IMG/VR virus record: IMGVR_UViG_3300047546_001881
Span: 11,717-75,716 of that record
Direction: 5' to 3' (one strand)
DNA length: 64,000 nucleotides
Source of the DNA: a virus
Part shown: piece after piece, positions 1,943 through 12,298 of the stretch
Numbering within the stretch: position 1 is the first letter of the stretch
Layout: every line of letters begins with the position of its first letter
Program-made: the position numbers and the translations under genes
The notes under the pieces: generated by a model
Database searches by the model: none
What the model saw: only the letters and a program-made list of their open reading frames with translations
Told to the model about the DNA's origin: nothing

Positions 1943-3718
1943 ATGTCATCTCCCTCAATACCATTGATTATACTGAGCATTGAATCTGGAATACCAATAC
2001 CAGATACTCGCTTTTCTTTCGTTTTACCAAATGTAGATGCTAAGAAATTTAGTGTTCCTCGCACTACTATTAATGGTTCAAAGCAAAAGTATTTTGCTAT
2101 AGCTATATCATTTGAAAATGAAGATAACTTATCTGTTATCCAAGATACAGAAAATAAGCTATTTTCAATAGAAGAGTATGGTGTTCTTTGCGTTTTAATA
2201 AGTAGCGAAGCTTCAGATTATTCTATTACATACAATTGTAAGGCTATTGAAACCTTTCAATTGAGTTCTTTTACTTTAAACAGCGAAGAGACTTACTCTG
2301 TTACTTACAGTAAGTTAAAAAATAAAGAAGTCTTCGGAGAAGAAGAACTTTATAACGACTTAATTACTCTTGTTACTCATATTAGAGATAAAGAAGATAT
2401 CTTTTCGCAAGAGGCAGCCAATGCACTGGCTGCAACTAAAAATCTAACTACTATATGTAACGTTATTGTCCACGACTTAGATATACCTAAACAAACAAAG
2501 CTACTATATCTACATGCTCAATCTAATTTAGATCGAGTTACCATAGTAACTAAATGCTTGTTTGATATCTTAAGAGAACGAAATAATATTTCAAATACTC
2601 TTCCTAAGAGAATGAATAGAAATATATTAGATTTCGTCACAAAAGACTCAGAAGACAATAACGAAGAAGATGATTCATCTACTACTGATGATGAATCTCC
2701 TCCTACTTTAAGAGAAGTATCTTCTATCGCTGAAGAATTAATGCCTAAAGAATTTAAACAGGCATTAGCAGAATGTAGAAGTAGACTTAAATCTTTGCCA
2801 AACCAAAGCATGGAATATCATGCTTTGAAAGAGTATCTTACTTGGTTAGAAAAAATTCCTTGGGGCAAAAAGTCTTACTCTACACCTGATCTTAAAGCTT
2901 TAAAAGAGTATATGAACGAAAGTCATTTTGGATTAGATGACGTTAAACAAACAATTATGGAGCACATGGCTATTGAAAGTATCTGTGGTACTTCTAAAGG
3001 TCATGTACTCTGCTTTGTAGGACCTCCTGGAACTGGTAAGACTAGTATTGCTAACGCAATAGCTAAAGCTACCAATAGAAAAGCAATTAAGATTGCTTTA
3101 GGTGGTCTTGGAGATGAAGCAGAAATAAGAGGTCATCGCCGCACTTACGTTGCTTCTAGACCAGGCAGAGTAATTGCAGGAATTGTTTCCAAGGAAACAA
3201 TGGATCCTATGTTTATCTTAGATGAAATAGATAAATTAGGTCACGGTAAATCTGATCCTTCAGCAGCTCTTCTAGAACTATTAGATCCTGAACAAAACCA
3301 TGAGTTCATAGACAGATACTTAGAAGTTCCAGTAGATCTTTCTAACGCTATGTTCGTCTGCACAGCAAACGATGAAGACAGTATACCTGCTGCTCTTAAA
3401 GACAGATTTGAAATCATCTACTTCAGAAACTATGAAGAAGATGAACGCAAAAAGATATTGAAAGATTACATAATACCAAATGCAATATCTGACTACAATC
3501 TAGGTAATTTAAAAATATCTTTTGACGAGAGCTCGCTTTTGCTCGCTAGTTCCGTGGTTGGCTTAAGAGAAATAAAGACTACTGTTAAAAAGCTTTTAAG
3601 AAAAGCTGCTCTAGAAATACTTTCTGGAGCTGAATCAGTAGTAATTGATGAAAAAAGTATCAAAGACAATCTCAAAGTAAACAAAAATAAACACTTGCAA
3701 AGAAAAGTAGGTTTTTAA
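1943..3718 (+). CDS. lon: Lon-family AAA+ ATPase lacking the C-terminal S16 protease domain
   Basis: SHFGLDDVK, Walker A GPPGTGKTS, LGGLGDEAEIRGHRRTY, Walker B ILDEIDK, DPSAALLELLDPEQN; protein ends just after the AAA lid in RKVGF. Confidence 0.9.
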   Translation: MSSPSIPLIILSIESGIPIPDTRFSFVLPNVDAKKFSVPRTTINGSKQKYFAIAISFENEDNLSVIQDTENKLFSIEEYGVLCVLISSEASDYSITYNCKAIETFQLSSFTLNSEETYSVTYSKLKNKEVFGEEELYNDLITLVTHIRDKEDIFSQEAANALAATKNLTTICNVIVHDLDIPKQTKLLYLHAQSNLDRVTIVTKCLFDILRERNNISNTLPKRMNRNILDFVTKDSEDNNEEDDSSTTDDESPPTLREVSSIAEELMPKEFKQALAECRSRLKSLPNQSMEYHALKEYLTWLEKIPWGKKSYSTPDLKALKEYMNESHFGLDDVKQTIMEHMAIESICGTSKGHVLCFVGPPGTGKTSIANAIAKATNRKAIKIALGGLGDEAEIRGHRRTYVASRPGRVIAGIVSKETMDPMFILDEIDKLGHGKSDPSAALLELLDPEQNHEFIDRYLEVPVDLSNAMFVCTANDEDSIPAALKDRFEIIYFRNYEEDERKKILKDYIIPNAISDYNLGNLKISFDESSLLLASSVVGLREIKTTVKKLLRKAALEILSGAESVVIDEKSIKDNLKVNKNKHLQRKVGF

Positions 3719-4539
3719 TGCACACTACAATTAGTCTTTCCTCTCTACCAGAAAGACTAGCAAAAAGCATTATCAGCATACATAACAGCAATTCTTTTCT
3801 TAGTAAACTAGATCGTCTTAATCCAGTATATGCAGGTGGCTATCCAATGGCTCTTCTCCTTGCTCCAAGAAGCAAGGAGAATTCTATTACTAGTCACTAC
3901 TCTGACTATGATTTATATTTCCAAAACCAAGATCAATGTAAAGATGCTATTGAGCTTATTAAAGCTGAATACACTGATCATGAAGAATTTGTAACTGAAA
4001 ACGCTGTTACGATTGTTGGTAAGAAAGAAGAAAAGAAAATCACTTACCAAGTAGTAACAAAATTTAACTACAGTCCAGTAGATGTAGTTAATACTTTTGA
4101 TTTTACAAATTGCGCAATAGCTTACACTCCTCATAATAATACTTTTACAACTCACGTAGATACAGTAAAAGATCATTGTGAAAAGAAGCTAAATATCCAC
4201 AATCCTTGGATGCTAGATAAACTTCTAAATGATGAATTGACTGAAGACCAGATTAAAACTCTTGCTTCAGTTCAAATCGTAAGATTTAAGAAGTACATGT
4301 ATCGCTGGGATTACGAACTATCAGATTCTGCTTTTCAGAAACTAATAGAAGTATACAATAAGTTTCCGAGTATTATAGCAAAAAGAGGCTCTCCTTTAGT
4401 TATTGAAGAAGGCTCTTATAAAGGCTTTGTACACTTAGTAAAAACAAATCAAAACTTATGGCTTGGAATGCGTAGTTGCATAACAAAACATAGGTTGTTT
4501 ACAAAATTTGTAGATAAACACAAAGTATTTAGGAATTAA
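3718..4539 (+). CDS. Pol-beta-superfamily nucleotidyltransferase (poly(A) polymerase/CCA head-like)
   Basis: YAGG...SDYDLYF (GG/DxD) and TFDFTNCAIAY motifs; TAATG-coupled to lon. Confidence 0.75.
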   Translation: MHTTISLSSLPERLAKSIISIHNSNSFLSKLDRLNPVYAGGYPMALLLAPRSKENSITSHYSDYDLYFQNQDQCKDAIELIKAEYTDHEEFVTENAVTIVGKKEEKKITYQVVTKFNYSPVDVVNTFDFTNCAIAYTPHNNTFTTHVDTVKDHCEKKLNIHNPWMLDKLLNDELTEDQIKTLASVQIVRFKKYMYRWDYELSDSAFQKLIEVYNKFPSIIAKRGSPLVIEEGSYKGFVHLVKTNQNLWLGMRSCITKHRLFTKFVDKHKVFRN

Positions 4540-4541
4540 AA

Positions 4542-4853
4542 ATGACTTACTCTTCTTACTTCTCTACTCCAGTAAATGATGTAGCCGCTGCAACAACTTC
4601 ACAAGAGACTGCTCCTGCTACACAGTATGCTGGTTACGCTGAGTTTATGTCGAATCTAAATGATTCGAACTGGCTGTACTTCGTCTCTAGCGACGAAGAG
4701 ATCTTTGCTCCAGTAACTCTTACTGCTTTCAAGCGTAGAGAAGATGCTAGAAACCTAAAGCGCCAACTAAGTGCCACTAATCCTAACGAGAATTTCTTTA
4801 TTCAAAGATTCTCAGTTAGCATTTTCAACGATAATCTTAACGTAATTACCTGA
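4542..4853 (+). CDS. Hypothetical protein
   Basis: SD AGGA, ORF followed by terminator. Confidence 0.7.
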   Translation: MTYSSYFSTPVNDVAAATTSQETAPATQYAGYAEFMSNLNDSNWLYFVSSDEEIFAPVTLTAFKRREDARNLKRQLSATNPNENFFIQRFSVSIFNDNLNVIT

Positions 4854-4859
4854 TTGCAT

Positions 4860-4901
4860 GCCTGGGTGGTATTTCACGATACCACCCAGGCTTTGTTGTT
4901 T
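4860..4901 (+). terminator. Rho-independent terminator
   Basis: GCCTGGGTGGTAT-TTCACG-ATACCACCCAGGC-TTTGTTGTTT. Confidence 0.85.
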
Positions 4902-4926
4902 AATTTATTTTCTTTAGTAGTTTCAC

Positions 4927-5148
4927 ATGAAATACAAATTAGTATGTTATGACTCTGACAATTGTGGTTTCGTTGAATATTTAGAAGATATTCCGGACGA
5001 TTTTATTTGTGAAAATTGTGCAGGCATATCAGCTTTATACAATATTCACTCAACTCCAATTCACACTAGATCTAAACCAGATCTAGATAAAGAACTAACC
5101 AAACTATTAGAGAGAGTAAATAAATACAATGGAAATCAATCTCAATAG
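4927..5148 (+). CDS. Small zinc-ribbon protein
   Basis: CYDSDNC...CENC cysteine pairs. Confidence 0.6.
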   Translation: MKYKLVCYDSDNCGFVEYLEDIPDDFICENCAGISALYNIHSTPIHTRSKPDLDKELTKLLERVNKYNGNQSQ

Positions 5149-7954
5149 TCTTCCTCATGCTATCCCTGCATCTGTAGCTAGAAGTGTCATTGATGCCGCT
5201 TACGACAGACTATCTCTAAGACAAAGATGGAATTATAACGCAGTTCATACTTACAAAACTGTAGATCTTCTTTATATTTATGCAACATATGCTCTAAGAG
5301 CACATAGATATTACTTTGATCCTGAAGTCACTCAACTTCCTTCTTATGCTCATCTTTGTGAATTTGTTCAAGATTTTGAACAAGCAACAGAGAGAGGAGA
5401 AGATGTTGAGTCAAAGCTTTACTTGACTGTTGCAGAGGCAATTAAATCTCTTCTAGAAGCTTCAGTTTCTGGCACCGAAGAGTTCAAGCAAAACGAAGTT
5501 ACAAAATTTATATTGCAACTTTACAGTGGTCTCAGGTCTAACAACTTCGCTTTAAATTCTTCTTATCTTTCGTACCATCAAAGAGCTTCTCATTTCTCAA
5601 ATGCACGCTATGAGTTTGACAAGAGATATGCTCACTACGTTCAAGACAACTGCAATTATTATTTGCTGCCTCGGCCTGATAGTATTGATGAATATATTAT
5701 AGCTCCAAAGAAGAACTTTTATTCTGTTGATTTGGGAGAAAACAGAACTGCTCTTTCTCACTTCTCTTCTGAAGTAATTAAGAACTTTTCTACAATTATT
5801 GATTTCTCTCAAATTAAAATTAATCTGACTCCTTCAAATGGATTAAGTCAATATCCAATTCCTACAGGTAATGACTTCGTTCATATATCTTTTGGTACTT
5901 CACCATCTATTTCAACATTGCCTTATTCTGCAGGATCAATTGTAGGCGAGAACTTTCTTTCAGAAAACTGCTTTAATTCTTTTGCCAACAAAAATGATCT
6001 TGTTAATGTATATACGTTAGAGAGTCCCTTTAGAGGGACTCCTTCTCTAAACAAAACTACAGTTAAAAAGAAGCTTCTAAATTCTGTAATTTATATTATG
6101 CCAATTGTTACTAACATTGGTATTTTTAACTTTGTTACTGGACAAGAAGAGTCTGTACCTTTCATTAGAATAAAGATCAAAGCAGATGAAAAGAAGATAA
6201 TTAAATATAAATCTTCTTTAAACTGGATGATTGATTTTATCTGTAAGATTACGAATCAAAAAGGTATGGAGTTCTATGCTCCCGAAGAATATGAGAAACT
6301 TCTAAAGAATAGATTTGGAACTGCTGGTAAGTATTATAAAACTCTTGTTGATTTCCTATCTAGTTTAAAGATTGGTTTAGCCGAATACAAAGATAATAGC
6401 TTCAATACTATAATAGATGCATTGGCATCTGACTCATTCAAATATCATGAGATAGCTTCTTCTGCTGTTGATATTCCAAATTTGTCAGAAGCCATCAAGA
6501 ATGAAAAGATGCTCGAGAGACTAACTGGTCAGTTGAATGAATTGAGCAATTCTTTCCTTTCAAAAAATAATGAAATAGATAAGCTCAATGCTTCTCTTTC
6601 ATCTTTTGAAGATGAGATTGCTTATCATCTTCGAAGATTAGAAAATCTTAAGAATGACAAAGAAACTCTTATTTTGAAATCTCCAATACTCAAAAAAGAG
6701 CTTTCTGATATTGAAAAGAGTAGAAACGCTTTATCTGAAGTTATAGAACCCTTAAATGCAAAAGTTAAAGAGTTCAATACGCAGAAGCATGAAATGCTTC
6801 TTGCGTCTATAGATAGCGCCGATACGAAGTTCTTAGATAATCTATCTTCTAGTAACATGAAACTAAATAATGTTTACTATACGATTCCAGCAATTCCATA
6901 TTTCAAAGGAATGACTAGAGACTTCACAAAGTATTTTAAGCTTCCAATTGAAAAGCTACCTTCTGGTCTTATAGGTTGTAGCGGGTATAGAGAAGACTAT
7001 ATGATCTCTATACAAAGCTTACCTAAGATTGCGTATTGCGCTCAAAACAAGTTGCCTCTATCTATGGAAGATGTTCTGACTGAAGAAGGTATAGTAAAAC
7101 TCAATCTCTTCCGTCCAGAAGAAATAAGTTTTGCTTTAACTCCTAGTTTGATAGCAGTAGACTTTTCTACTCTTAAGCCTTCTATTATCAAGATTGACGG
7201 GACGCAAAAGTCCGTTGTTGGTGGACCTTATAACGTAATCTTATTTGCTGTTATTAACTTTGACTGGCACAGGCGTGTAACAAGTTCTACTAACTATATG
7301 TACATATCAGCTAAAGAAAGTAGTAGCGTTGTTGGAATAGATAAAGACTACAATGATACTACTTACCTAAAGATTAAAATTCATCCTCATACTGGTGGCA
7401 TTTATGCACCTAAGAGTGAAAACTTCTTTAGTTGTCTTAAAGGCAAATATGACTATTGTTGTCTAGGTGAAGGACTTCCTGGCATCTACAAAGGCTTTGA
7501 ATTAGCAAACGTAAGAATGGCTTTGTTCTCTGCTAAAGCTTGGATTGAATCAACTAATAGCGGAGATACTTGGGGTAGAACATATACTATGTTCCCCGCT
7601 CTAAGTGAAGTTAATCTTAATGGAATCGAAGTAGAGGAAACGGAAGCTCCAGTAGAAACTAATGAAGTTTCTACTGAAGAAGAAATTACTGATACTGAAA
7701 TGCTAATGATCCTTCAAGGTGTAATTGATAATATCAATACTACACTTTCAACAACTCCAGTAGAACAGCCAGTTGTATTTATAGATTTAACACAACCTGA
7801 ATTGCAACAAACTGTAGAAAACATAGTTGAAGCAATTAACGAATCTCTTAGTCTGCCACCTATACCTCCAATAGTAGTAGCAGAACCAACTCCTGTTGTT
7901 AGTAATACCGGTTATTCTACTTATTCCAGTGTAGTTAATTCTCTCATCGCATAA
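5129..7954 (+). CDS. Large protein: N-terminal domain, central coiled coil, C-terminal E2 (ubiquitin-conjugating)-like domain, acidic/Pro tail
   Basis: GGPYNVIL...KIHPH (7382-7390)...YCCLG (7457-7468) resembles the E2 GGxF...HPN...ICL signature; adjacent to JAB, E1 and Ubl genes. Confidence 0.6.
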   Translation: MEINLNSLPHAIPASVARSVIDAAYDRLSLRQRWNYNAVHTYKTVDLLYIYATYALRAHRYYFDPEVTQLPSYAHLCEFVQDFEQATERGEDVESKLYLTVAEAIKSLLEASVSGTEEFKQNEVTKFILQLYSGLRSNNFALNSSYLSYHQRASHFSNARYEFDKRYAHYVQDNCNYYLLPRPDSIDEYIIAPKKNFYSVDLGENRTALSHFSSEVIKNFSTIIDFSQIKINLTPSNGLSQYPIPTGNDFVHISFGTSPSISTLPYSAGSIVGENFLSENCFNSFANKNDLVNVYTLESPFRGTPSLNKTTVKKKLLNSVIYIMPIVTNIGIFNFVTGQEESVPFIRIKIKADEKKIIKYKSSLNWMIDFICKITNQKGMEFYAPEEYEKLLKNRFGTAGKYYKTLVDFLSSLKIGLAEYKDNSFNTIIDALASDSFKYHEIASSAVDIPNLSEAIKNEKMLERLTGQLNELSNSFLSKNNEIDKLNASLSSFEDEIAYHLRRLENLKNDKETLILKSPILKKELSDIEKSRNALSEVIEPLNAKVKEFNTQKHEMLLASIDSADTKFLDNLSSSNMKLNNVYYTIPAIPYFKGMTRDFTKYFKLPIEKLPSGLIGCSGYREDYMISIQSLPKIAYCAQNKLPLSMEDVLTEEGIVKLNLFRPEEISFALTPSLIAVDFSTLKPSIIKIDGTQKSVVGGPYNVILFAVINFDWHRRVTSSTNYMYISAKESSSVVGIDKDYNDTTYLKIKIHPHTGGIYAPKSENFFSCLKGKYDYCCLGEGLPGIYKGFELANVRMALFSAKAWIESTNSGDTWGRTYTMFPALSEVNLNGIEVEETEAPVETNEVSTEEEITDTEMLMILQGVIDNINTTLSTTPVEQPVVFIDLTQPELQQTVENIVEAINESLSLPPIPPIVVAEPTPVVSNTGYSTYSSVVNSLIA

Positions 7955-7959
7955 TAATA

Positions 7960-7993
7960 AATGCTTGGAGGAGTAAAATCCTCCAAGCATTTG
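7960..7993 (+). terminator. Hairpin between the E2-like and JAB genes
   Basis: AATGCTTGGAGGA-GTAAAA-TCCTCCAAGCATT; weak U-tract. Confidence 0.65.
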
Positions 7994-8044
7994 TCTCTAG
8001 CCTTAGTATTTGTATCTTCAAACATTTTACACTATAGGCTAAAA

Positions 8045-9256
8045 ATGAATCCCCTAGGTAGTTTTAAAATTCTAAACAACAATATTAAGATTCAGATATC
8101 TCATAAAGATCTATTTGCAATTCAACATCTAGTTAGTATAGCTCCTCAAGAAGCTCAATGGTTCCATAGACTAGAGACAATTAAGACTAAAAGCGAAACT
8201 ATTTTTCGCATTTACGATATCTACATTCCAGAACAGTATTGCTCAGTCACAGAAGTTGAGTCTACTAGTTCTATGATGATTAACTTTTACAGAGAACTGA
8301 TTTCAAATAACTCTGTAGAAGCTACAAATGCGATTCTATCTTCACTGAATGTATGGTGTCATAGTCACCATACCATGTCTCCAAGTCCAAGCGGGCAGGA
8401 CAACAATCAGTTTCTACAGCTAATTAAGTATGCAGTAGACTCTAACAATGTTGTTCCTCAAATTATGCTAATCTTTAATAAGAGCAATCAGTATTACTCA
8501 CGAATCTTTGATCCTCAAAATGGACTAGTATACGAAAATGTTCCTATATGTGTAGAGACTGAAGATCTGAGTTGGATTGATAAAGCTGCTGCTGCAAAGT
8601 TTAAGAAGCCAGCTCCAAAGAATATCTTTTCTCAAGATACTACTTCAGGAAAATTGAATTTCCCGCAAAATGCTTCTATTGAAAGAACATTCATTGGAAT
8701 TGAAAAGCAAGTTCCTGATCTGTCTTTTAAAGAGACTTCTAGGTCTTCTAAAAAAAAAGATCACAGCAAGCAAATTACAAGCCCTTCAGCGTTAACGTCT
8801 AAAGCAATTAATAAGCTATTTCTAGACTATTGGAAAGTCCATTCTTCAGATGAAGAAAACATCGCTATTCTAATGAAGAAAATCTTCTCTACAAATTCTT
8901 CTTGCCAGAAAGAAGCTGGTGAACTTGAAGATATTATTATTAAGAGAGTTGGCAGTGATAATAAATATTGCGCTCTTCTTAACTTGATTCAAGTTCAAGA
9001 TGACGATGAAGATTTGAGAGAATGGGAGAAGTTTCAGTTTGATTACGATCAAGCCGAAGTTCTTATGAATTCAGAAAGATTCTATGAAATTCTTACCGCT
9101 GGTTGTATCGACGACATCCTCCTTACTCATACAATCTTTCTAGTCAATTGCTTGTATGGCTCTATGTATACAACAGAAGAAGAAAGAGAAAAGCTAATTG
9201 ATTGGTGGCTCACAGAAACTGGAACTTGTAACTATAAGTTCGGTGAGCATTTCTAA
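8045..9256 (+). CDS. JAB/MPN+ (JAMM) metalloprotease with a C-terminal helical extension
   Basis: N-terminal Glu (QEAQWF) and HSH-x7-S-x2-D (HSHHTMSPSPSGQD, 8360-8401); start moved to ATG 8045 downstream of the hairpin. Confidence 0.88.
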   Translation: MNPLGSFKILNNNIKIQISHKDLFAIQHLVSIAPQEAQWFHRLETIKTKSETIFRIYDIYIPEQYCSVTEVESTSSMMINFYRELISNNSVEATNAILSSLNVWCHSHHTMSPSPSGQDNNQFLQLIKYAVDSNNVVPQIMLIFNKSNQYYSRIFDPQNGLVYENVPICVETEDLSWIDKAAAAKFKKPAPKNIFSQDTTSGKLNFPQNASIERTFIGIEKQVPDLSFKETSRSSKKKDHSKQITSPSALTSKAINKLFLDYWKVHSSDEENIAILMKKIFSTNSSCQKEAGELEDIIIKRVGSDNKYCALLNLIQVQDDDEDLREWEKFQFDYDQAEVLMNSERFYEILTAGCIDDILLTHTIFLVNCLYGSMYTTEEEREKLIDWWLTETGTCNYKFGEHF

Positions 9257-9261
9257 TCTTT

Positions 9262-9296
9262 AACCATAGCGCCTTTCGGCGCTTTGGTTGTTTGGT
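9262..9296 (+). promoter_or_regulatory. TTTC-loop hairpin upstream of the E1 gene
   Basis: AACCA-T-AGCGCC-TTTC-GGCGCT-T-TGGTT followed by GTTTGG. Confidence 0.5.
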
Positions 9297-9324
9297 TCTT
9301 TGTTAGTAAACAATAGAGGTCAAC

Positions 9325-10014
9325 ATGACTGAAGTATCTTTCTTGAGGCATGCAGGATTCTTCAGTCCTGAAGATGCTGAAACTCTAAATATTATTGGTG
9401 TTGGTGCCACAGGCTCAAACATCGGTTTGATTGCTGCAAAAATGGGGTTCCACTCATTCAAAGTCTGGGATGCAGACATAGTTGAGAACCATAATTTGCC
9501 AAATCAAATTTACGATGTTGAGCATGTTGGGATGCGAAAAGTTGATGCATTTAAAGCAGTGCTTCAACGATTCAATCCCAATATTAAAGTAGAAACTCAC
9601 CCATACTTCTTTGAAGCATCTCATAAATCTCTACTAGATGATGGTCCTCTTGTATTGACTGTAGATACAATGAGTGCTCGTAAAGACATTCATTCTGCAT
9701 TCCATATGAATTATCTAGTAAACAAAGTTTATGAGACCCGACTTGGCTTTGATTATGGCGAGCTAAACATCATTGATAATATGAATATCGTCCAATCAAG
9801 CAAGTGGGTAGACTGCTTAAGAAGTGACAGTGAGCTTCCAGAAGGCCCCTGTAATCTTCGAATTTGTACTACGCTAGTAGGTCTTGTAGCTTCTTATACC
9901 GTTCATACAATCTGCGCTTTTCTTTCTACAAAGCGCTCCCAAGTTGATTGTTCAGGCATAAAACCAAAAACAATTTTCAACTTTGGTCCTCAAATTTACA
10001 CTCATTCACTATAG
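9325..10014 (+). CDS. ThiF/MoeB/E1-like ubiquitin-like-protein activating enzyme
   Basis: IIGVGATGS (GxGxxG), WDADIVENHNLPNQ, KVDA, TVD; candidate catalytic Cys in EGPCNLRIC; SD GAGG. Confidence 0.92.
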   Translation: MTEVSFLRHAGFFSPEDAETLNIIGVGATGSNIGLIAAKMGFHSFKVWDADIVENHNLPNQIYDVEHVGMRKVDAFKAVLQRFNPNIKVETHPYFFEASHKSLLDDGPLVLTVDTMSARKDIHSAFHMNYLVNKVYETRLGFDYGELNIIDNMNIVQSSKWVDCLRSDSELPEGPCNLRICTTLVGLVASYTVHTICAFLSTKRSQVDCSGIKPKTIFNFGPQIYTHSL

Positions 10015-10024
10015 GAAAACTATC

Positions 10025-10240
10025 ATGCGTGATATCGTACTCGTTCGCGTTCCAGGTCCAGGCGCTTCAACCGTTCAGGTTACCGACACTATGACTGTTG
10101 CTGAGTTCGCAGCTCGCGAAGCTCTTAACGGTCGTAACATTGTTCTCGACGGTACTGGTCTTGAGCCACAGGCTTGGTCCAGCACCACTCTTGCTGGTGT
10201 TCGCGAACTATTCGCAACTGGCAGCGTTAAGGGTAACTGA
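10025..10240 (+). CDS. Ubiquitin-like (beta-grasp) protein, 71 aa, C-terminus ...GSVKGN
   Basis: beta-beta-alpha pattern (IVLVRV / TVQV / MTVAEFAARE), final strand ELFATG, penultimate Gly; SD AGGA before ATG 10025; directly after E1. Confidence 0.8.
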   Translation: MRDIVLVRVPGPGASTVQVTDTMTVAEFAAREALNGRNIVLDGTGLEPQAWSSTTLAGVRELFATGSVKGN

Positions 10241-10267
10241 ACCCTTTAGCTCTTTTACATTGCTAAC

Positions 10268-10308
10268 AATGCTCGTCCTACTTACCAAAGTAGGGCGAGC
10301 ATTTTTTT
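10268..10308 (+). terminator. Rho-independent terminator closing the E1-Ubl unit
   Basis: AATGCTCGTCCTACTT-ACCA-AAGTAGGGCGAGCATT then a T-tract. Confidence 0.85.
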
Positions 10309-11821: not shown

Positions 11822-12298
11822 ATGAGAAAGTTTCCTGGTACTTACCCTGTTTATAAAAAGAATGGTGCAGCTCAATTCACAGTAATTCCTCCTAAAGTAG
11901 ATGCTGGTGGTCGAATTACTAAGAACGGAGCCATTCTTCTAGAAGTTGCCTCTGCTGTTGGAGATAAAGCTTACGACTGGAAAGCAAAGATTAGCTTTGC
12001 TATTGGTGTAAATGATATTGCGCTTTGGTTCAATGATCCAAATGCTCAAGTTAAACTAATTCACAAGACTCCTGAGTCTTCACTAATGAAGACTTTAGAA
12101 GTCATTCCTGGAGAAGGTCAGTACTCTGGTACTTATCAGTTAAAGCTTACTGAAAAAGATTCTTCCAACAATGCATTCCGTAGTATCTTTGTCCCCGTTA
12201 CCAACGGAGAATATACAATACTACTGCGCTTGTTCATGCATGCAATGCCATTGCTAATCGGCTGGGATAATGAATCCCAGCTTGATCACAGTGCATAA
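11822..12298 (+). CDS. Whirly-family ssDNA-binding protein
   Basis: VYKKNGAA...GAILLEVASAVGDKAYDWKAKISFAIGVNDI...IFVPVTNGEYTIL...MPLLIGW is collinear with the plant Whirly domain (IYKGKAAL...QYDWxxKQxFxLSVxEI...IPVTKAEF...PYLLGW). Confidence 0.8.
   Translation: MRKFPGTYPVYKKNGAAQFTVIPPKVDAGGRITKNGAILLEVASAVGDKAYDWKAKISFAIGVNDIALWFNDPNAQVKLIHKTPESSLMKTLEVIPGEGQYSGTYQLKLTEKDSSNNAFRSIFVPVTNGEYTILLRLFMHAMPLLIGWDNESQLDHSA

What the first reader, a model, noticed from the sequence alone, without database searches (positions are those of the whole stretch)
5129..10308. Apparently complete phage-encoded ubiquitin-like conjugation cascade (E2-like, JAB, E1, Ubl)
Seen: four consecutive co-oriented genes, closed by a terminator. 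They encode a 941-aa protein with an HPH...CCLG E2-like motif, a protease with an exact JAMM motif (E...HSH-x7-S-xx-D), a ThiF/E1 adenylating enzyme, and a 71-aa beta-grasp-like protein ending ...VKGN. No thiamine or molybdopterin biosynthesis genes (thiG, moaE) are present, which argues against a sulfur-carrier role. Known: E1/E2/JAB/Ubl sets conjugate proteins in bacterial anti-phage systems (Bil/Bub operons, CBASS Cap2/Cap3). Inference: here the phage carries the whole cascade in its early region. It could tag host proteins, neutralise or compete with host Ubl defence, or modify virions of competing phages.
Basis: partly seen in the sequence, partly recalled or inferred. Interest (0 to 1): 0.92.

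Follow-up and report, generated by a model that had tools for sequence, protein, structure and literature searches.

The report
Phage-encoded ubiquitin-like tagging gene set
An uncultured freshwater phage and its relatives carry what looks like their own ubiquitin-style protein-tagging kit (tag, trimming protease, activating enzyme and a giant probable carrier enzyme), a kind of system so far studied only in cells and as a bacterial defence against phages.

Summary
Window 4927-10303 is one co-oriented gene block between two terminator-like hairpins. It encodes:
- a 73-aa four-Cys zinc-ribbon protein;
- a 941-aa protein;
- a JAMM/JAB protease;
- a 229-aa ThiF-type E1;
- a 71-aa protein ending VKGN.

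Eighteen related phage contigs keep the same gene order. Several add polyubiquitin-like genes with two to four head-to-tail tag copies, each ending KGN, or tag fusions. More distant sets recur in other phage-like contigs.

I found no sulfur-relay partner genes and no paper describing such a phage kit. This scan had already reported the same system on other DNA. Conjugation and targets are untested.

The parts
3718..4539 (+). 273-aa conserved neighbour, a possible Gad2-like nucleotidyltransferase; membership in the system is uncertain
   Evidence: It lies next to the cassette in all 16 loci compared plus L024 and L025. The alignment shows invariant G40 and D63-x-D65 of an hG[GS]...DxD type. ESM-feature look-alikes are Gad2-family clusters at 0.97, which is a lead only. 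It matches phrog_4400, of unknown function. A hairpin at 4860-4891 separates it from the cassette.
4860..4891 (+). terminator-like hairpin upstream of the unit
   Evidence: 14-pair stem followed by a T-rich tail. RNA-library contigs from three runs end at 4846-4933, which is a weak hint.
4927..5148 (+). 73-aa four-Cys zinc-ribbon protein, first gene of the unit; possible adaptor or E3-like helper
   Evidence: The pattern C-x5-C ... C-x2-C is conserved in 16 of 16 loci, always beside the 273-aa gene or the giant gene. Its stop overlaps the start of the 941-aa gene by 20 nt. It has no Pfam hit.
5129..7954 (+). 941-aa giant protein: weakly conserved N-terminal region, coiled coil (about 450-580), E2-like domain (663-835), acidic or Pro-rich tail with a conserved Y near the end
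   Evidence: (coiled-coil-type hits only). The exhaustive profile search found 236 cluster representatives, nearly all 650-1150 aa with the domain in the C-terminal third.
7115..7633 (+). E2-like (UBC-like) domain; HPH at nt 7382-7390 and the candidate catalytic Cys778 at nt 7460-7462
7961..9256 (+). JAB/JAMM metalloprotease (N-terminal about 190 aa) plus a variable C-terminal region; probable true start at nt 8045
   Evidence: E64, H134, H136, S144 and D147 are invariant in 14 homologues. Prok-JAB scores 19 bits for this protein, below the 25-bit cut-off. 13 of 14 members hit Prok-JAB, best E 9.2e-6. PADLOC JAB models score 0.003-0.006.
9268..9283 (+). small GC hairpin with a TTTC loop between the JAB and E1 genes
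   Evidence: Its function was not tested. RNA-library contigs downstream have higher depth, a weak hint.
9325..10014 (+). 229-aa single-domain ThiF/MoeB-type E1 (adenylating enzyme); candidate catalytic Cys176 at nt 9850-9852
   Evidence: Pfam ThiF 67.6 bits. PDB profile hits include ThiF-type 9egb at 2.7e-14, PaaA, UBA5, TcdA, ThiF, MoeB, MccB, Cap2 and BubCD. GxGxxG, D49, N-L-P-N-Q, K72, D114 and R119 are conserved in 47 related E1s, and C176 in all 46 that align there.
10025..10240 (+). 71-aa ubiquitin-like tag precursor ending V-K-G-N
10268..10303 (+). terminator-like hairpin closing the unit
   Evidence: 16-pair stem followed by TTTTTTCC. RNA-library contigs end at 10173-10263 while a DNA-run contig runs on, a weak hint.

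Best explanation
The cassette is a phage-borne ubiquitin-like protein-conjugation system.

Shown:
- the four folds or families, with the E2-like one shown only weakly;
- the conserved active-site residues;
- the conserved gene order;
- polyubiquitin-like tag genes in relatives.

Inferred steps:
1. The 71-aa beta-grasp tag is made as a precursor ending Gly70-Asn71. In relatives it is made as head-to-tail poly-tags or as tag fusions.
2. The JAB metalloprotease trims it, most likely exposing Gly70, as BilC does for BilA.
3. The short ThiF-type E1, probably a homodimer, adenylates the tag's C-terminus. It may hold the tag as a thioester on the invariant Cys176.
4. The tag passes to invariant Cys778 of the UBC-like domain of the 941-aa protein.
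5. That protein's N-terminal region, coiled coil and perhaps the small Zn-ribbon protein select targets, so it would act as an E2/E3 hybrid and attach the tag to host or phage proteins during infection.
6. The JAB enzyme can also reverse the modification.

The biological purpose (host takeover or counter-defence) is not determined.
For: - E1: Pfam ThiF 67.6 bits. The adenylation-site residues and Cys176 are conserved across 47 related E1s.
- JAB: the JAMM motif is invariant in 14 homologues, and 13 of 14 match Prok-JAB.
- Tag: a confident beta-grasp model whose best matches are ubiquitin, MoaD and ThiS, with a flexible conserved tail T-G-S/A-V-K-G-N.
- Tag genes in relatives: they encode 2-4 exact 71-residue head-to-tail repeats, each ending KGN. 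Others are tag fusions to a 94-aa domain or to a Gly/Arg-rich tail, or single tags with 1-3 extra residues after KGN.
- L026: its tag ends VKGA, so Gly is the constant residue.
- Bil precedent: BilA has a one-residue Ala cap after the reactive Gly, removed by the JAB enzyme, and the gene order is E2-DUB-E1 (10.1101/2023.09.26.559546).
- E2-like domain: HPH, Cys-Leu-Gly and Asp are invariant over 110 sequences. The model has pLDDT 92.4. About 25 of the top 35 VIA rows among 48,161 chains are UBC E2s. A distant homologue (hhalign 92.5%, E 4.8e-7) reads HPHVIDGSGGGACLGD. From my own knowledge, that is close to the canonical UBC HPN-x8-C-L-D motif.
- Gene order: the same order occurs in 18 related contigs, and reshuffled four-part sets occur in distant contigs.
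- Sulfur partners: no rhodanese, ThiG, MoaE, TtuA-type or NifS-type gene is in this record or, for the first four, in three complete 158-162 kb relatives.
- Expression (weak hint): the stretch is present in riverine RNA libraries, with contig depth uneven there but flat in a DNA run.
Against: - The E2-like domain matches no E2 family by sequence (Pfam on 51 members, PDB profiles).
- HPH lies 24 residues before the Cys, against about 8 in canonical E2s.
- The E1 is a minimal 229-aa adenylation domain. It lacks the CYS and UFD-type modules that known conjugating E1s use to charge an E2.
- The tag's nearest structural neighbours by VIA are the sulfur carriers MoaD and ThiS.
- Asn71 and Lys69 are invariant in 38 units, which a mere removable cap does not explain.
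- No target, E3 or biochemical datum exists.
Confidence: 0.6

Rival explanations
1. Sulfur-carrier system. The E1 adenylates the tag, which becomes a C-terminal thiocarboxylate and donates sulfur for a thio-modification of nucleotides, tRNA, phage DNA or a cofactor. The JAB enzyme only matures the carrier. The 941-aa protein is a sulfur acceptor or transferase using Cys778, or is unrelated.
For: - The E1 is a short single-domain ThiF/MoeB-type enzyme.
- The cassette lies among nucleotide-metabolism genes such as RNR and PhoH.
- JAB enzymes are known partners of sulfur carriers (Iyer et al. 2006, PMC1779556).
Against: - No rhodanese, cysteine desulfurase, ThiG, MoaE or TtuA-type gene is in the record. 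The four families tested are also absent from three complete relatives, although host enzymes could serve.
- Foldseek ranks ubiquitin itself first.
- An invariant Cys-bearing UBC-like domain is always adjacent.
Confidence: 0.12
2. Counter-defence module rather than a general tagging system. The phage set interferes with host ubiquitin-like immunity (Bil, type II CBASS). The JAB enzyme could strip host conjugates, and the E1 and tag could compete with or poison the host pathway. Alternatively the set tags and inactivates a defence protein.
For: - Known bacterial E1/E2/JAB/Ubl systems act in antiphage immunity (10.1101/2023.09.26.559546; PMC10097602).
- The cassette sits beside a gene whose language-model look-alikes are Gad2 anti-Gabija proteins, which is a lead only (Gad2: 10.1101/2023.05.01.538930).
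- It lies in the non-structural part of the genome.
Against: - There is no evidence on the host or on its defence systems.
- A deconjugase alone would suffice for stripping, yet all components are conserved together in 18 contigs.
- The Gad2 likeness could not be tested with a profile, because PF26128 is not in the local library.
Confidence: 0.15
3. Asn-dependent chemistry. The mature tag keeps its invariant C-terminal Asn, and the E1 activates it in an MccB-like way (adenylate, then succinimide or another Asn-specific product). Alternatively the invariant Lys69/Asn71 pair forms Lys-Asn isopeptides.
For: - Asn71 and Lys69 are invariant in 38 units, including internal repeats followed by variable residues.
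- KGN recurs in distant sets, as AKGNA in L038 and IKGNVA in L041.
- MccB, a ThiF-type enzyme acting on a C-terminal Asn (own knowledge; PMC11118369 abstract), is among the PDB profile hits at 3.3e-7.
Against: - One family member ends VKGA.
- The MccB match covers only the Rossmann region (positions 19-94) and is weaker than the matches to ThiF, UBA5 or PaaA.
- The E1 has no room for MccB's N-terminal peptide clamp.
- The substrate is a folded beta-grasp domain with a ubiquitin-like tail, and Bil gives a direct precedent for a removable residue after Gly.
Confidence: 0.06

Closest known systems
BilABCD (Bil, class 6E/6C-type) bacterial antiphage ubiquitination systems (10.1101/2023.09.26.559546)
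   Same: - Four parts: Ubl, E2, JAB deubiquitinase and E1.
- The internal order E2-JAB-E1 is shared.
- The Ubl is made with a residue after the reactive Gly, which the JAB enzyme removes (BilA Gly97-Ala98; here Gly70-Asn71).
- There is no separate RING or HECT E3.
   Different: - This set is carried by a lytic-type phage genome, not a bacterial defence island.
- The E1 is a 229-aa single adenylation domain, without Bil's inactive-plus-active domain pair and mobile CYS domain.
- The E2-like domain belongs to a new sequence family embedded in a 650-1150-aa protein.
- The Ubl gene lies last, not first.
- Relatives have polyubiquitin-like genes.
- A Zn-ribbon gene is attached.
Predicted prokaryotic E1-like/E2-like/JAB/Ubl operons of Iyer, Burroughs and Aravind 2006 (PMC1779556)
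   Same: - The same logic of co-located ThiF-type E1, JAB, UBC-like protein and beta-grasp protein.
- That paper already noted proteins with two or three tandem Ub-like domains, and a Zn-finger protein in some operons.
   Different: - Those operons are bacterial.
- In that paper, phage involvement was limited to the lambda/T1 tail-assembly Ubl (TAPI) with a JAB-NlpC/P60 protein, which has no E1 or E2.
- Here the tandem units are exact 71-residue repeats, each with its own KGN end, like a cleavable polyubiquitin.
Type II CBASS Cap2 (E1-E2 fusion) / Cap3 (JAB) (PMC10097602)
   Same: - ThiF-type adenylation domain: PADLOC 'E1-E2' models match the Rossmann part of the E1 (best 3.8e-13), and Cap2 is among the PDB hits.
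- A JAB partner is present.
- A nucleotidyltransferase-like gene lies nearby (unverified).
   Different: - E1 and E2 are not fused here.
- A separate beta-grasp tag exists, rather than the C-terminus of a CD-NTase being conjugated.
- There is no effector gene.
- The set is phage-borne.
Eukaryotic polyubiquitin and ubiquitin-fusion genes (own knowledge)
   Same: - Relatives encode head-to-tail tag repeats and tag-protein fusions that need a protease for release.
- A single extra residue caps the last unit.
   Different: - There is no sequence relationship beyond the fold (16-18% identity in structural alignments).
- Each unit ends KGN rather than RGG.
- The body has no lysine, so chains like those of ubiquitin are unlikely.
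- The window's own phage has only one single-copy tag gene.
ThiS/MoaD-ThiF/MoeB sulfur-carrier pairs
   Same: - Small single-domain E1.
- The beta-grasp partner has its best VIA matches to MoaD and ThiS.
   Different: - No acceptor or donor enzymes were found.
- The tail ends Gly-Asn, not Gly-Gly.
- A Cys-bearing UBC-like protein and a JAB enzyme are always attached.
- Poly-tag genes exist in relatives.

Membership tests
ThiF/E1 superfamily (PF00899) | Profile match above the curated cut-off | tested here: met
   67.6 bits against a cut-off of 28.1, residues 23-204. PDB profile hits include ThiF, MoeB, UBA5, PaaA, MccB, Cap2 and BubCD.
ThiF/E1 superfamily (PF00899) | Nucleotide-binding GxGxxG loop and acidic or basic adenylation-site residues | tested here: met
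   G25-x-G27-x-x-G30, D49, K72, D114 and R119 are conserved in 45-48 of 48 aligned E1s (this one plus 47 relatives). The usual N-x-R-Q reads N-L-P-N-Q in this clade.
ThiF/E1 superfamily (PF00899) | Catalytic Cys for an E1~Ubl thioester (conjugating E1s only) | tested here: inconclusive
   Cys176 is conserved in 46 of 46 aligned sequences. Its position relative to the crossover loop was not modelled, and no CYS domain is present.
JAB/MPN+ metalloproteases (PF14464 Prok-JAB) | JAMM motif E...H-x-H-x7-S-x2-D | tested here: met
   E64, H134, H136, S144 and D147 are invariant in 14 homologues.
JAB/MPN+ metalloproteases (PF14464 Prok-JAB) | Profile match above the curated cut-off | tested here: not met
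   This protein scores 19 bits against a cut-off of 25. 13 of 14 family members match at E 0.1 or better, best 9.2e-6. The PDB profile search found nothing. It is a divergent member, and I file it by motif plus family-wide hits.
JAB/MPN+ metalloproteases (PF14464 Prok-JAB) | MPN fold | not tested
Ubiquitin-like beta-grasp modifiers | Beta-grasp fold | tested here: met
Ubiquitin-like beta-grasp modifiers | Flexible C-terminal tail ending in a reactive Gly | tested here: inconclusive
   Gly70 is invariant but always followed by Asn, or by Ala in L026. Exposure of the Gly needs processing, which was not shown.
UBC/E2 superfamily (PF00179 and the Prok-E2 families) | Profile match to an E2 family | tested here: not met
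   No E2 family was found at E 1 or better for this protein, or at E 0.001 or better for 51 family members. There are no PDB sequence hits.
UBC/E2 superfamily (PF00179 and the Prok-E2 families) | UBC fold | tested here: inconclusive
UBC/E2 superfamily (PF00179 and the Prok-E2 families) | H-P-N-type motif shortly before an invariant catalytic Cys | tested here: inconclusive
   HPH and Cys are invariant but 24 residues apart here. The distant homologue L038 has HPH-x9-C.
UBC/E2 superfamily (PF00179 and the Prok-E2 families) | Forms a thioester with the Ubl | not testable with these tools
   This needs biochemistry.
BilABCD systems | E1 with inactive and active adenylation domains and a mobile CYS domain | tested here: not met
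   The E1 is 229 aa with one adenylation domain.
BilABCD systems | Ubl, E2, JAB and E1 genes together, in the order E2-JAB-E1 | tested here: met
   Here the Ubl gene is last rather than first.
Type II CBASS (Cap2/Cap3) | E1-E2 fusion protein next to a CD-NTase and an effector | tested here: not met
   E1 and the E2-like protein are separate genes, and no effector is present. PADLOC E1-E2 models match only the Rossmann segment.
ThiS/MoaD sulfur-carrier pathways | Linked sulfur donor or acceptor enzymes (ThiG, MoaE, rhodanese, TtuA, NifS) | tested here: not met
   None is in the record. ThiG, MoaE, rhodanese and TtuA-type are not above the cut-off in three complete relatives. Host enzymes cannot be excluded.

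The most novel reading that the evidence does not exclude
The phage runs a ubiquitin-proteasome-like degradation pathway of its own.
- The E1 and the giant E2-like protein tag selected host (or phage) proteins with the lysine-poor Ubl.
- The neighbouring protease-less Lon-type AAA+ ATPase recognises tagged proteins and feeds them to a host peptidase. Its C-terminus ends in a conserved I/V-G-F, reminiscent of ClpP-docking loops.
- The JAB enzyme recycles the tag, as Rpn11 does.
- Poly-tag genes in relatives supply the tag in bulk.

A variant of this case is that the invariant Lys-Gly-Asn tail reflects a ligation chemistry not yet described for any Ubl.
Probability: 0.08. Interest if true: 0.95.

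Novelty: new variant of a known kind. Interest (0 to 1): 0.8.

Why it matters
- Ubiquitin-like conjugation in prokaryotes has so far been characterised as cellular machinery. Examples are archaeal SAMPs and bacterial Bil, Bub and CBASS, the last three used against phages.
- A conserved and widespread phage-encoded set would put the same chemistry in the hands of the virus. The set comprises a tag, a maturation and deconjugation protease, an activating enzyme and a new UBC-like carrier family. In relatives it includes polyubiquitin-style and fusion tag genes.
- If it works this way, it would open a new class of phage host-takeover or counter-defence mechanisms.
- It would add a very divergent branch to the E2 fold.
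- It would show that polyubiquitin-type gene organisation arose outside eukaryotes.
- The parts are small (71-aa tag, 229-aa E1), so they may also be useful as a minimal orthogonal tagging system.

Tried and rejected
- Complex prediction (E1 x2 + tag + E2-like domain as partner): verdict 'no answer', ipSAE 0.00 in both runs. This is not evidence either way.
- Foldseek of the E2-like model against the PDB: nothing at E 0.001 or better. The second look at Foldseek's own list gave no clear family.
- PDB profile searches that found nothing useful:
  - E2-like domain alignments A3 and A6;
  - the mixed alignment A5, which returned only coiled-coil noise;
  - JAB alignment A7;
  - tag alignment A9.
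- ESM Atlas on the E2-like domain: no usable hit.
- Pfam, PHROGs and PADLOC on the 941-aa protein and the tag: only coiled-coil-type noise, or nothing. Pfam on 51 family members gave nothing.
- GenBank phage collection: megablast of the cassette and tblastn of the E2-like domain both gave no match.
- Word-based homologue searches found only 1-4 close relatives.
- crAss001 gp78-gp77-gp76: only the ThiF gene matches my profiles. I therefore do not claim it as the same system.
- PF26128 (Gad2) is not in the local Pfam, so the Gad2 lead could not be tested.
- 9egb/9egc, the best E1 PDB hits, could not be traced to a paper.
- RNA-library depth differences come from contigs, not reads, so they cannot rank expression.

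Full report
**Setting.** The window is bases 11717-75716 of a 75.7-kb IMG/VR viral record that CheckV rates about 50% complete. It is a phage. It encodes a primase-helicase, a DnaE-type polymerase, a class II ribonucleotide reductase, PhoH and a Whirly-like ssDNA-binding protein on the + strand, and large unknown genes on the - strand. Near-identical DNA occurs in freshwater, riverine, aquatic and marine metagenomes from 12 studies. No GenBank phage matches the cassette at the DNA level.

**Anatomy.** A terminator-like hairpin lies at 4860-4891 and a stronger one at 10268-10303. Between them lie five co-oriented genes:
- a 73-aa protein (4927-5148);
- the 941-aa protein (5129-7954);
- the JAMM protein (7961-9256);
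- the E1 (9325-10014);
- the 71-aa protein (10025-10240).

The 73-aa gene overlaps the start of the 941-aa gene. Its product carries a conserved C-x5-C...C-x2-C zinc-ribbon pattern in all 16 loci compared. The JAMM protein's homologues all begin at its Met29, so nt 8045 is the likelier start. A small GC hairpin sits at 9268-9283.

**E1.** The 229-aa protein matches Pfam ThiF at 67.6 bits. A 15-sequence profile finds ThiF-type 9egb (2.7e-14), PaaA, UBA5, TcdA, ThiF, MoeB, MccB, Cap2 and BubCD in the PDB. Across 47 related E1s from phage-like contigs (25-66% identity) the following are conserved:
- the GxGxxG loop;
- D49;
- an N-L-P-N-Q variant of the usual N-x-R-Q;
- K72, D114 and R119;
- Cys176.

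It is a minimal adenylation domain with a conserved candidate catalytic Cys. It has no CYS or UFD-type module.

**JAB.** E64, H134, H136, S144 and D147 form an exact JAMM motif and are invariant in 14 homologues. This protein scores only 19 bits against Prok-JAB, below the 25-bit cut-off. However, 13 of 14 family members hit Prok-JAB, the best at 9.2e-6, and three PADLOC JAB models match at 0.003-0.006. The C-terminal half is variable and is split off by a frameshift in two relatives. The MPN fold itself was not modelled.

**E2-like domain.** Residues 663-835 of the 941-aa protein are the conserved core.
- Family size: an exhaustive profile search of 1.84 billion representatives found 236 proteins. 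Nearly all are 650-1150 aa, with the domain in the C-terminal third.
- Invariant residues over 110 sequences: G-P, (H)-P-H, C-(L)-G and one Asp. W, A-N and W-G are nearly invariant.
- Sequence matches: none of 51 members matches any Pfam family, and no PDB sequence profile hit exists.
- Model: pLDDT is 92.4. It shows a beta-meander, then HPH, then a short beta-alpha-beta insert, then Cys at the start of the first of three helices.

Independent support comes from distant homologues next to JAB-E1 pairs in other contigs. Profile-profile comparison gives 92.5% probability, E 4.8e-7. One of them (L038) reads HPHVIDGSGGGACLGD. From my own knowledge of UBC enzymes, that is close to the canonical HPN-x8-C-L-D active-site segment. 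I therefore treat the domain as a probable, very divergent UBC-like carrier with Cys778 as the active residue. I do not file it as a member of any described E2 family. BFVD holds only uncharacterised phage proteins with this fold.

**Conservation and family context.** Fifteen distinct IMG/VR loci and two MAG-binned contigs with full synteny keep the following order:
- 273-aa protein;
- Zn-ribbon;
- giant E2-like protein;
- JAB;
- E1;
- tag(s);
- (128-aa protein);
- PhoH.

A fragmentary third contig holds E1, tag and the 128-aa gene. A Lon-type AAA+ ATPase lies upstream in 9 of 16 loci.

A subgroup carries extra tag genes:
- L014 and L015 encode three exact 71-residue head-to-tail repeats.
- L009 and L017 encode two.
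- L021, L013 and L025 encode four, two and three repeats respectively, fused to a 94-aa domain. That domain also exists as a stand-alone roughly 100-aa protein in other loci.
- Several tags carry a Gly/Arg-rich tail.
- Some single tags have 1-3 residues after KGN.

Every unit ends KGN. One more distant tag ends VKGA, so Gly is the constant residue. These precursors must be cut by a protease, and the adjacent JAB enzyme is the obvious candidate.

Reshuffled four-part sets occur in distant phage-like contigs binned with Gammaproteobacteria, Bacteroidales and Saccharibacteria. Their tags end AKGNA or IKGNVA.

**Expression (weak).** Three riverine RNA libraries hold the stretch.
- Depth: their contigs over E1-tag have depth 27-41, against 5-7 over the giant gene and 2-6 beyond 10308. 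A DNA run is flat at 5.9-7.9.
- Contig ends: RNA contigs end at 10173-10263 and at 4846-4933, near the two hairpins, while DNA contigs run on.
- Caveat: contig data cannot prove transcription, strand or level.

**Mechanism.** The best reading (confidence 0.6) is a ubiquitin-like conjugation pathway:
1. The JAB enzyme matures the precursor.
2. The E1 adenylates the exposed C-terminus, possibly with a Cys176 thioester.
3. The tag is transferred to Cys778 of the giant protein.
4. The giant protein acts as an E2/E3 hybrid and modifies targets.
5. The JAB enzyme reverses the modification.

Bil gives direct precedent for the one-residue cap and for the E2-JAB-E1 order.

The sulfur-carrier rival is weakened by two things. 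No rhodanese, ThiG, MoaE or TtuA-type gene occurs in this record or in three complete 158-162 kb relatives, nor a NifS-type gene in this record. The poly-tag genes also fit it poorly. It is not excluded.

The invariance of Lys69 and Asn71 remains unexplained and keeps an Asn-dependent chemistry alive at low probability. The biological role (host takeover or counter-defence) is open.

**Literature and earlier scan notes.** Seven full-text searches found the bacterial systems (Iyer et al. 2006; Bil; Bub; CBASS) but no paper describing a phage-encoded E1/E2-like/JAB/Ubl set or phage poly-Ubl genes. That library is incomplete, so this is not proof of absence.

This scan had already reported the same system on other DNA, a 161-kb and a 150-kb phage, with similar conclusions. 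I reached the poly-tag and synteny results independently. I took from those notes the prompt to count lysines.

**Verdict.** This is a new variant of a known kind of system. Three of its four parts are secure and the fourth is probable. All enzymology is still to be done.

Noticed in passing
window 1943-3718 (+): Lon-type AAA+ ATPase (LON substrate-binding domain plus AAA, phrog_15585) with no protease domain. It ends ...KVGF. Relatives end in I/V-G-F, optionally followed by a few residues (RKRIGF, SPIGF, TKIGFSAG). It is present upstream of the cassette in 9 of 16 related loci.
   Followed up: partly
window 3718-4539 (+): 273-aa protein that is always adjacent to the cassette. It has an hG[GS]...DxD nucleotidyltransferase-like motif. 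Its ESM-feature look-alikes are Gad2 (anti-Gabija) family clusters at 0.97. This could not be checked with a profile because PF26128 is not in the local Pfam.
   Followed up: partly
L014 10366-11007; L015 9952-10626; L021 10785-11936; L013 10929-11648; L009 10099-10605; L017 9680-10159; L025 9949 onward: Polyubiquitin-like genes in related phages. They hold two to four head-to-tail tag units of exactly 71 (or 72) residues, each ending FATGSVKGN. Some are fused to a 94-aa C-terminal domain or to a short tail.
   Followed up: yes
L014 9814-10113; L015 11533-11841; L017 10396-10752; L018 9961-10266; L020 10053-10388: Unknown roughly 100-aa protein family (MGA.TFY ... HGH.GYTG.IAEK ... DKWGPAGC ... 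FFGWAS). It stands right after the tag gene in some phages and is fused behind the poly-tag in others. It has no Pfam match and is not found in the window.
   Followed up: partly
L018 10854-11168; L020 10710-11006; L022 9995-10366; L009 10099-10605: Tag units fused to a conserved Gly/Arg-rich tail (...P.N.PSQTGRPSGGGRGNNPPRGK) of unknown role.
   Followed up: no
L023 (Bacteroides phage crAss001, MH675552.1 81394-85065): crAss001 gp78 (hypothetical; contains H-S-H...C-T-G), gp77 (annotated as a metalloprotease; it has an exact HSH-x7-S-x2-D JAMM motif) and gp76 (ThiF with a 165-aa N-terminal extension) lie in the same order as the giant protein, JAB and E1 here. Only gp76 matches my profiles, and no tag gene was recognised.
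   Followed up: partly
L038 7715-10844; L029 6077-9398; L034 6107-9755; L041 5798-9074; L039 5875-9254: Distant four-part sets in MAG-binned contigs (Cellvibrionaceae, Saccharibacteria, Bacteroidaceae, Rikenellaceae). They contain a 370-440-aa protein with HPH..C.G, a JAB, an E1, and a small or fused beta-grasp-like protein. The tags end AKGNA or IKGNVA.
   Followed up: partly
L004 8986-10241 (= L008) and L019 8246-9004: In two relatives the JAB gene is split after the protease domain, by a frameshift or a stop. The variable C-terminal half continues in another frame or ORF.
   Followed up: no
window 7959-7992: A 14-pair inverted repeat lies between the stop of the giant gene and the probable JAB start (nt 8045). 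Contigs from three RNA libraries differ from the window at 7973-7978, in the loop, whereas a DNA run does not.
   Followed up: no
window 10025-10240: The tag gene has 53% G+C (GC3 40%), against 30-39% (GC3 20-30%) for its neighbours. This is partly due to its Gly/Ala/Val/Pro/Arg-rich composition.
   Followed up: partly
window 11822-12298 (+): 158-aa protein matching Pfam Whirly (2e-15, 57 bits), a family best known from plant organelles, here in a phage replication module.
   Followed up: no
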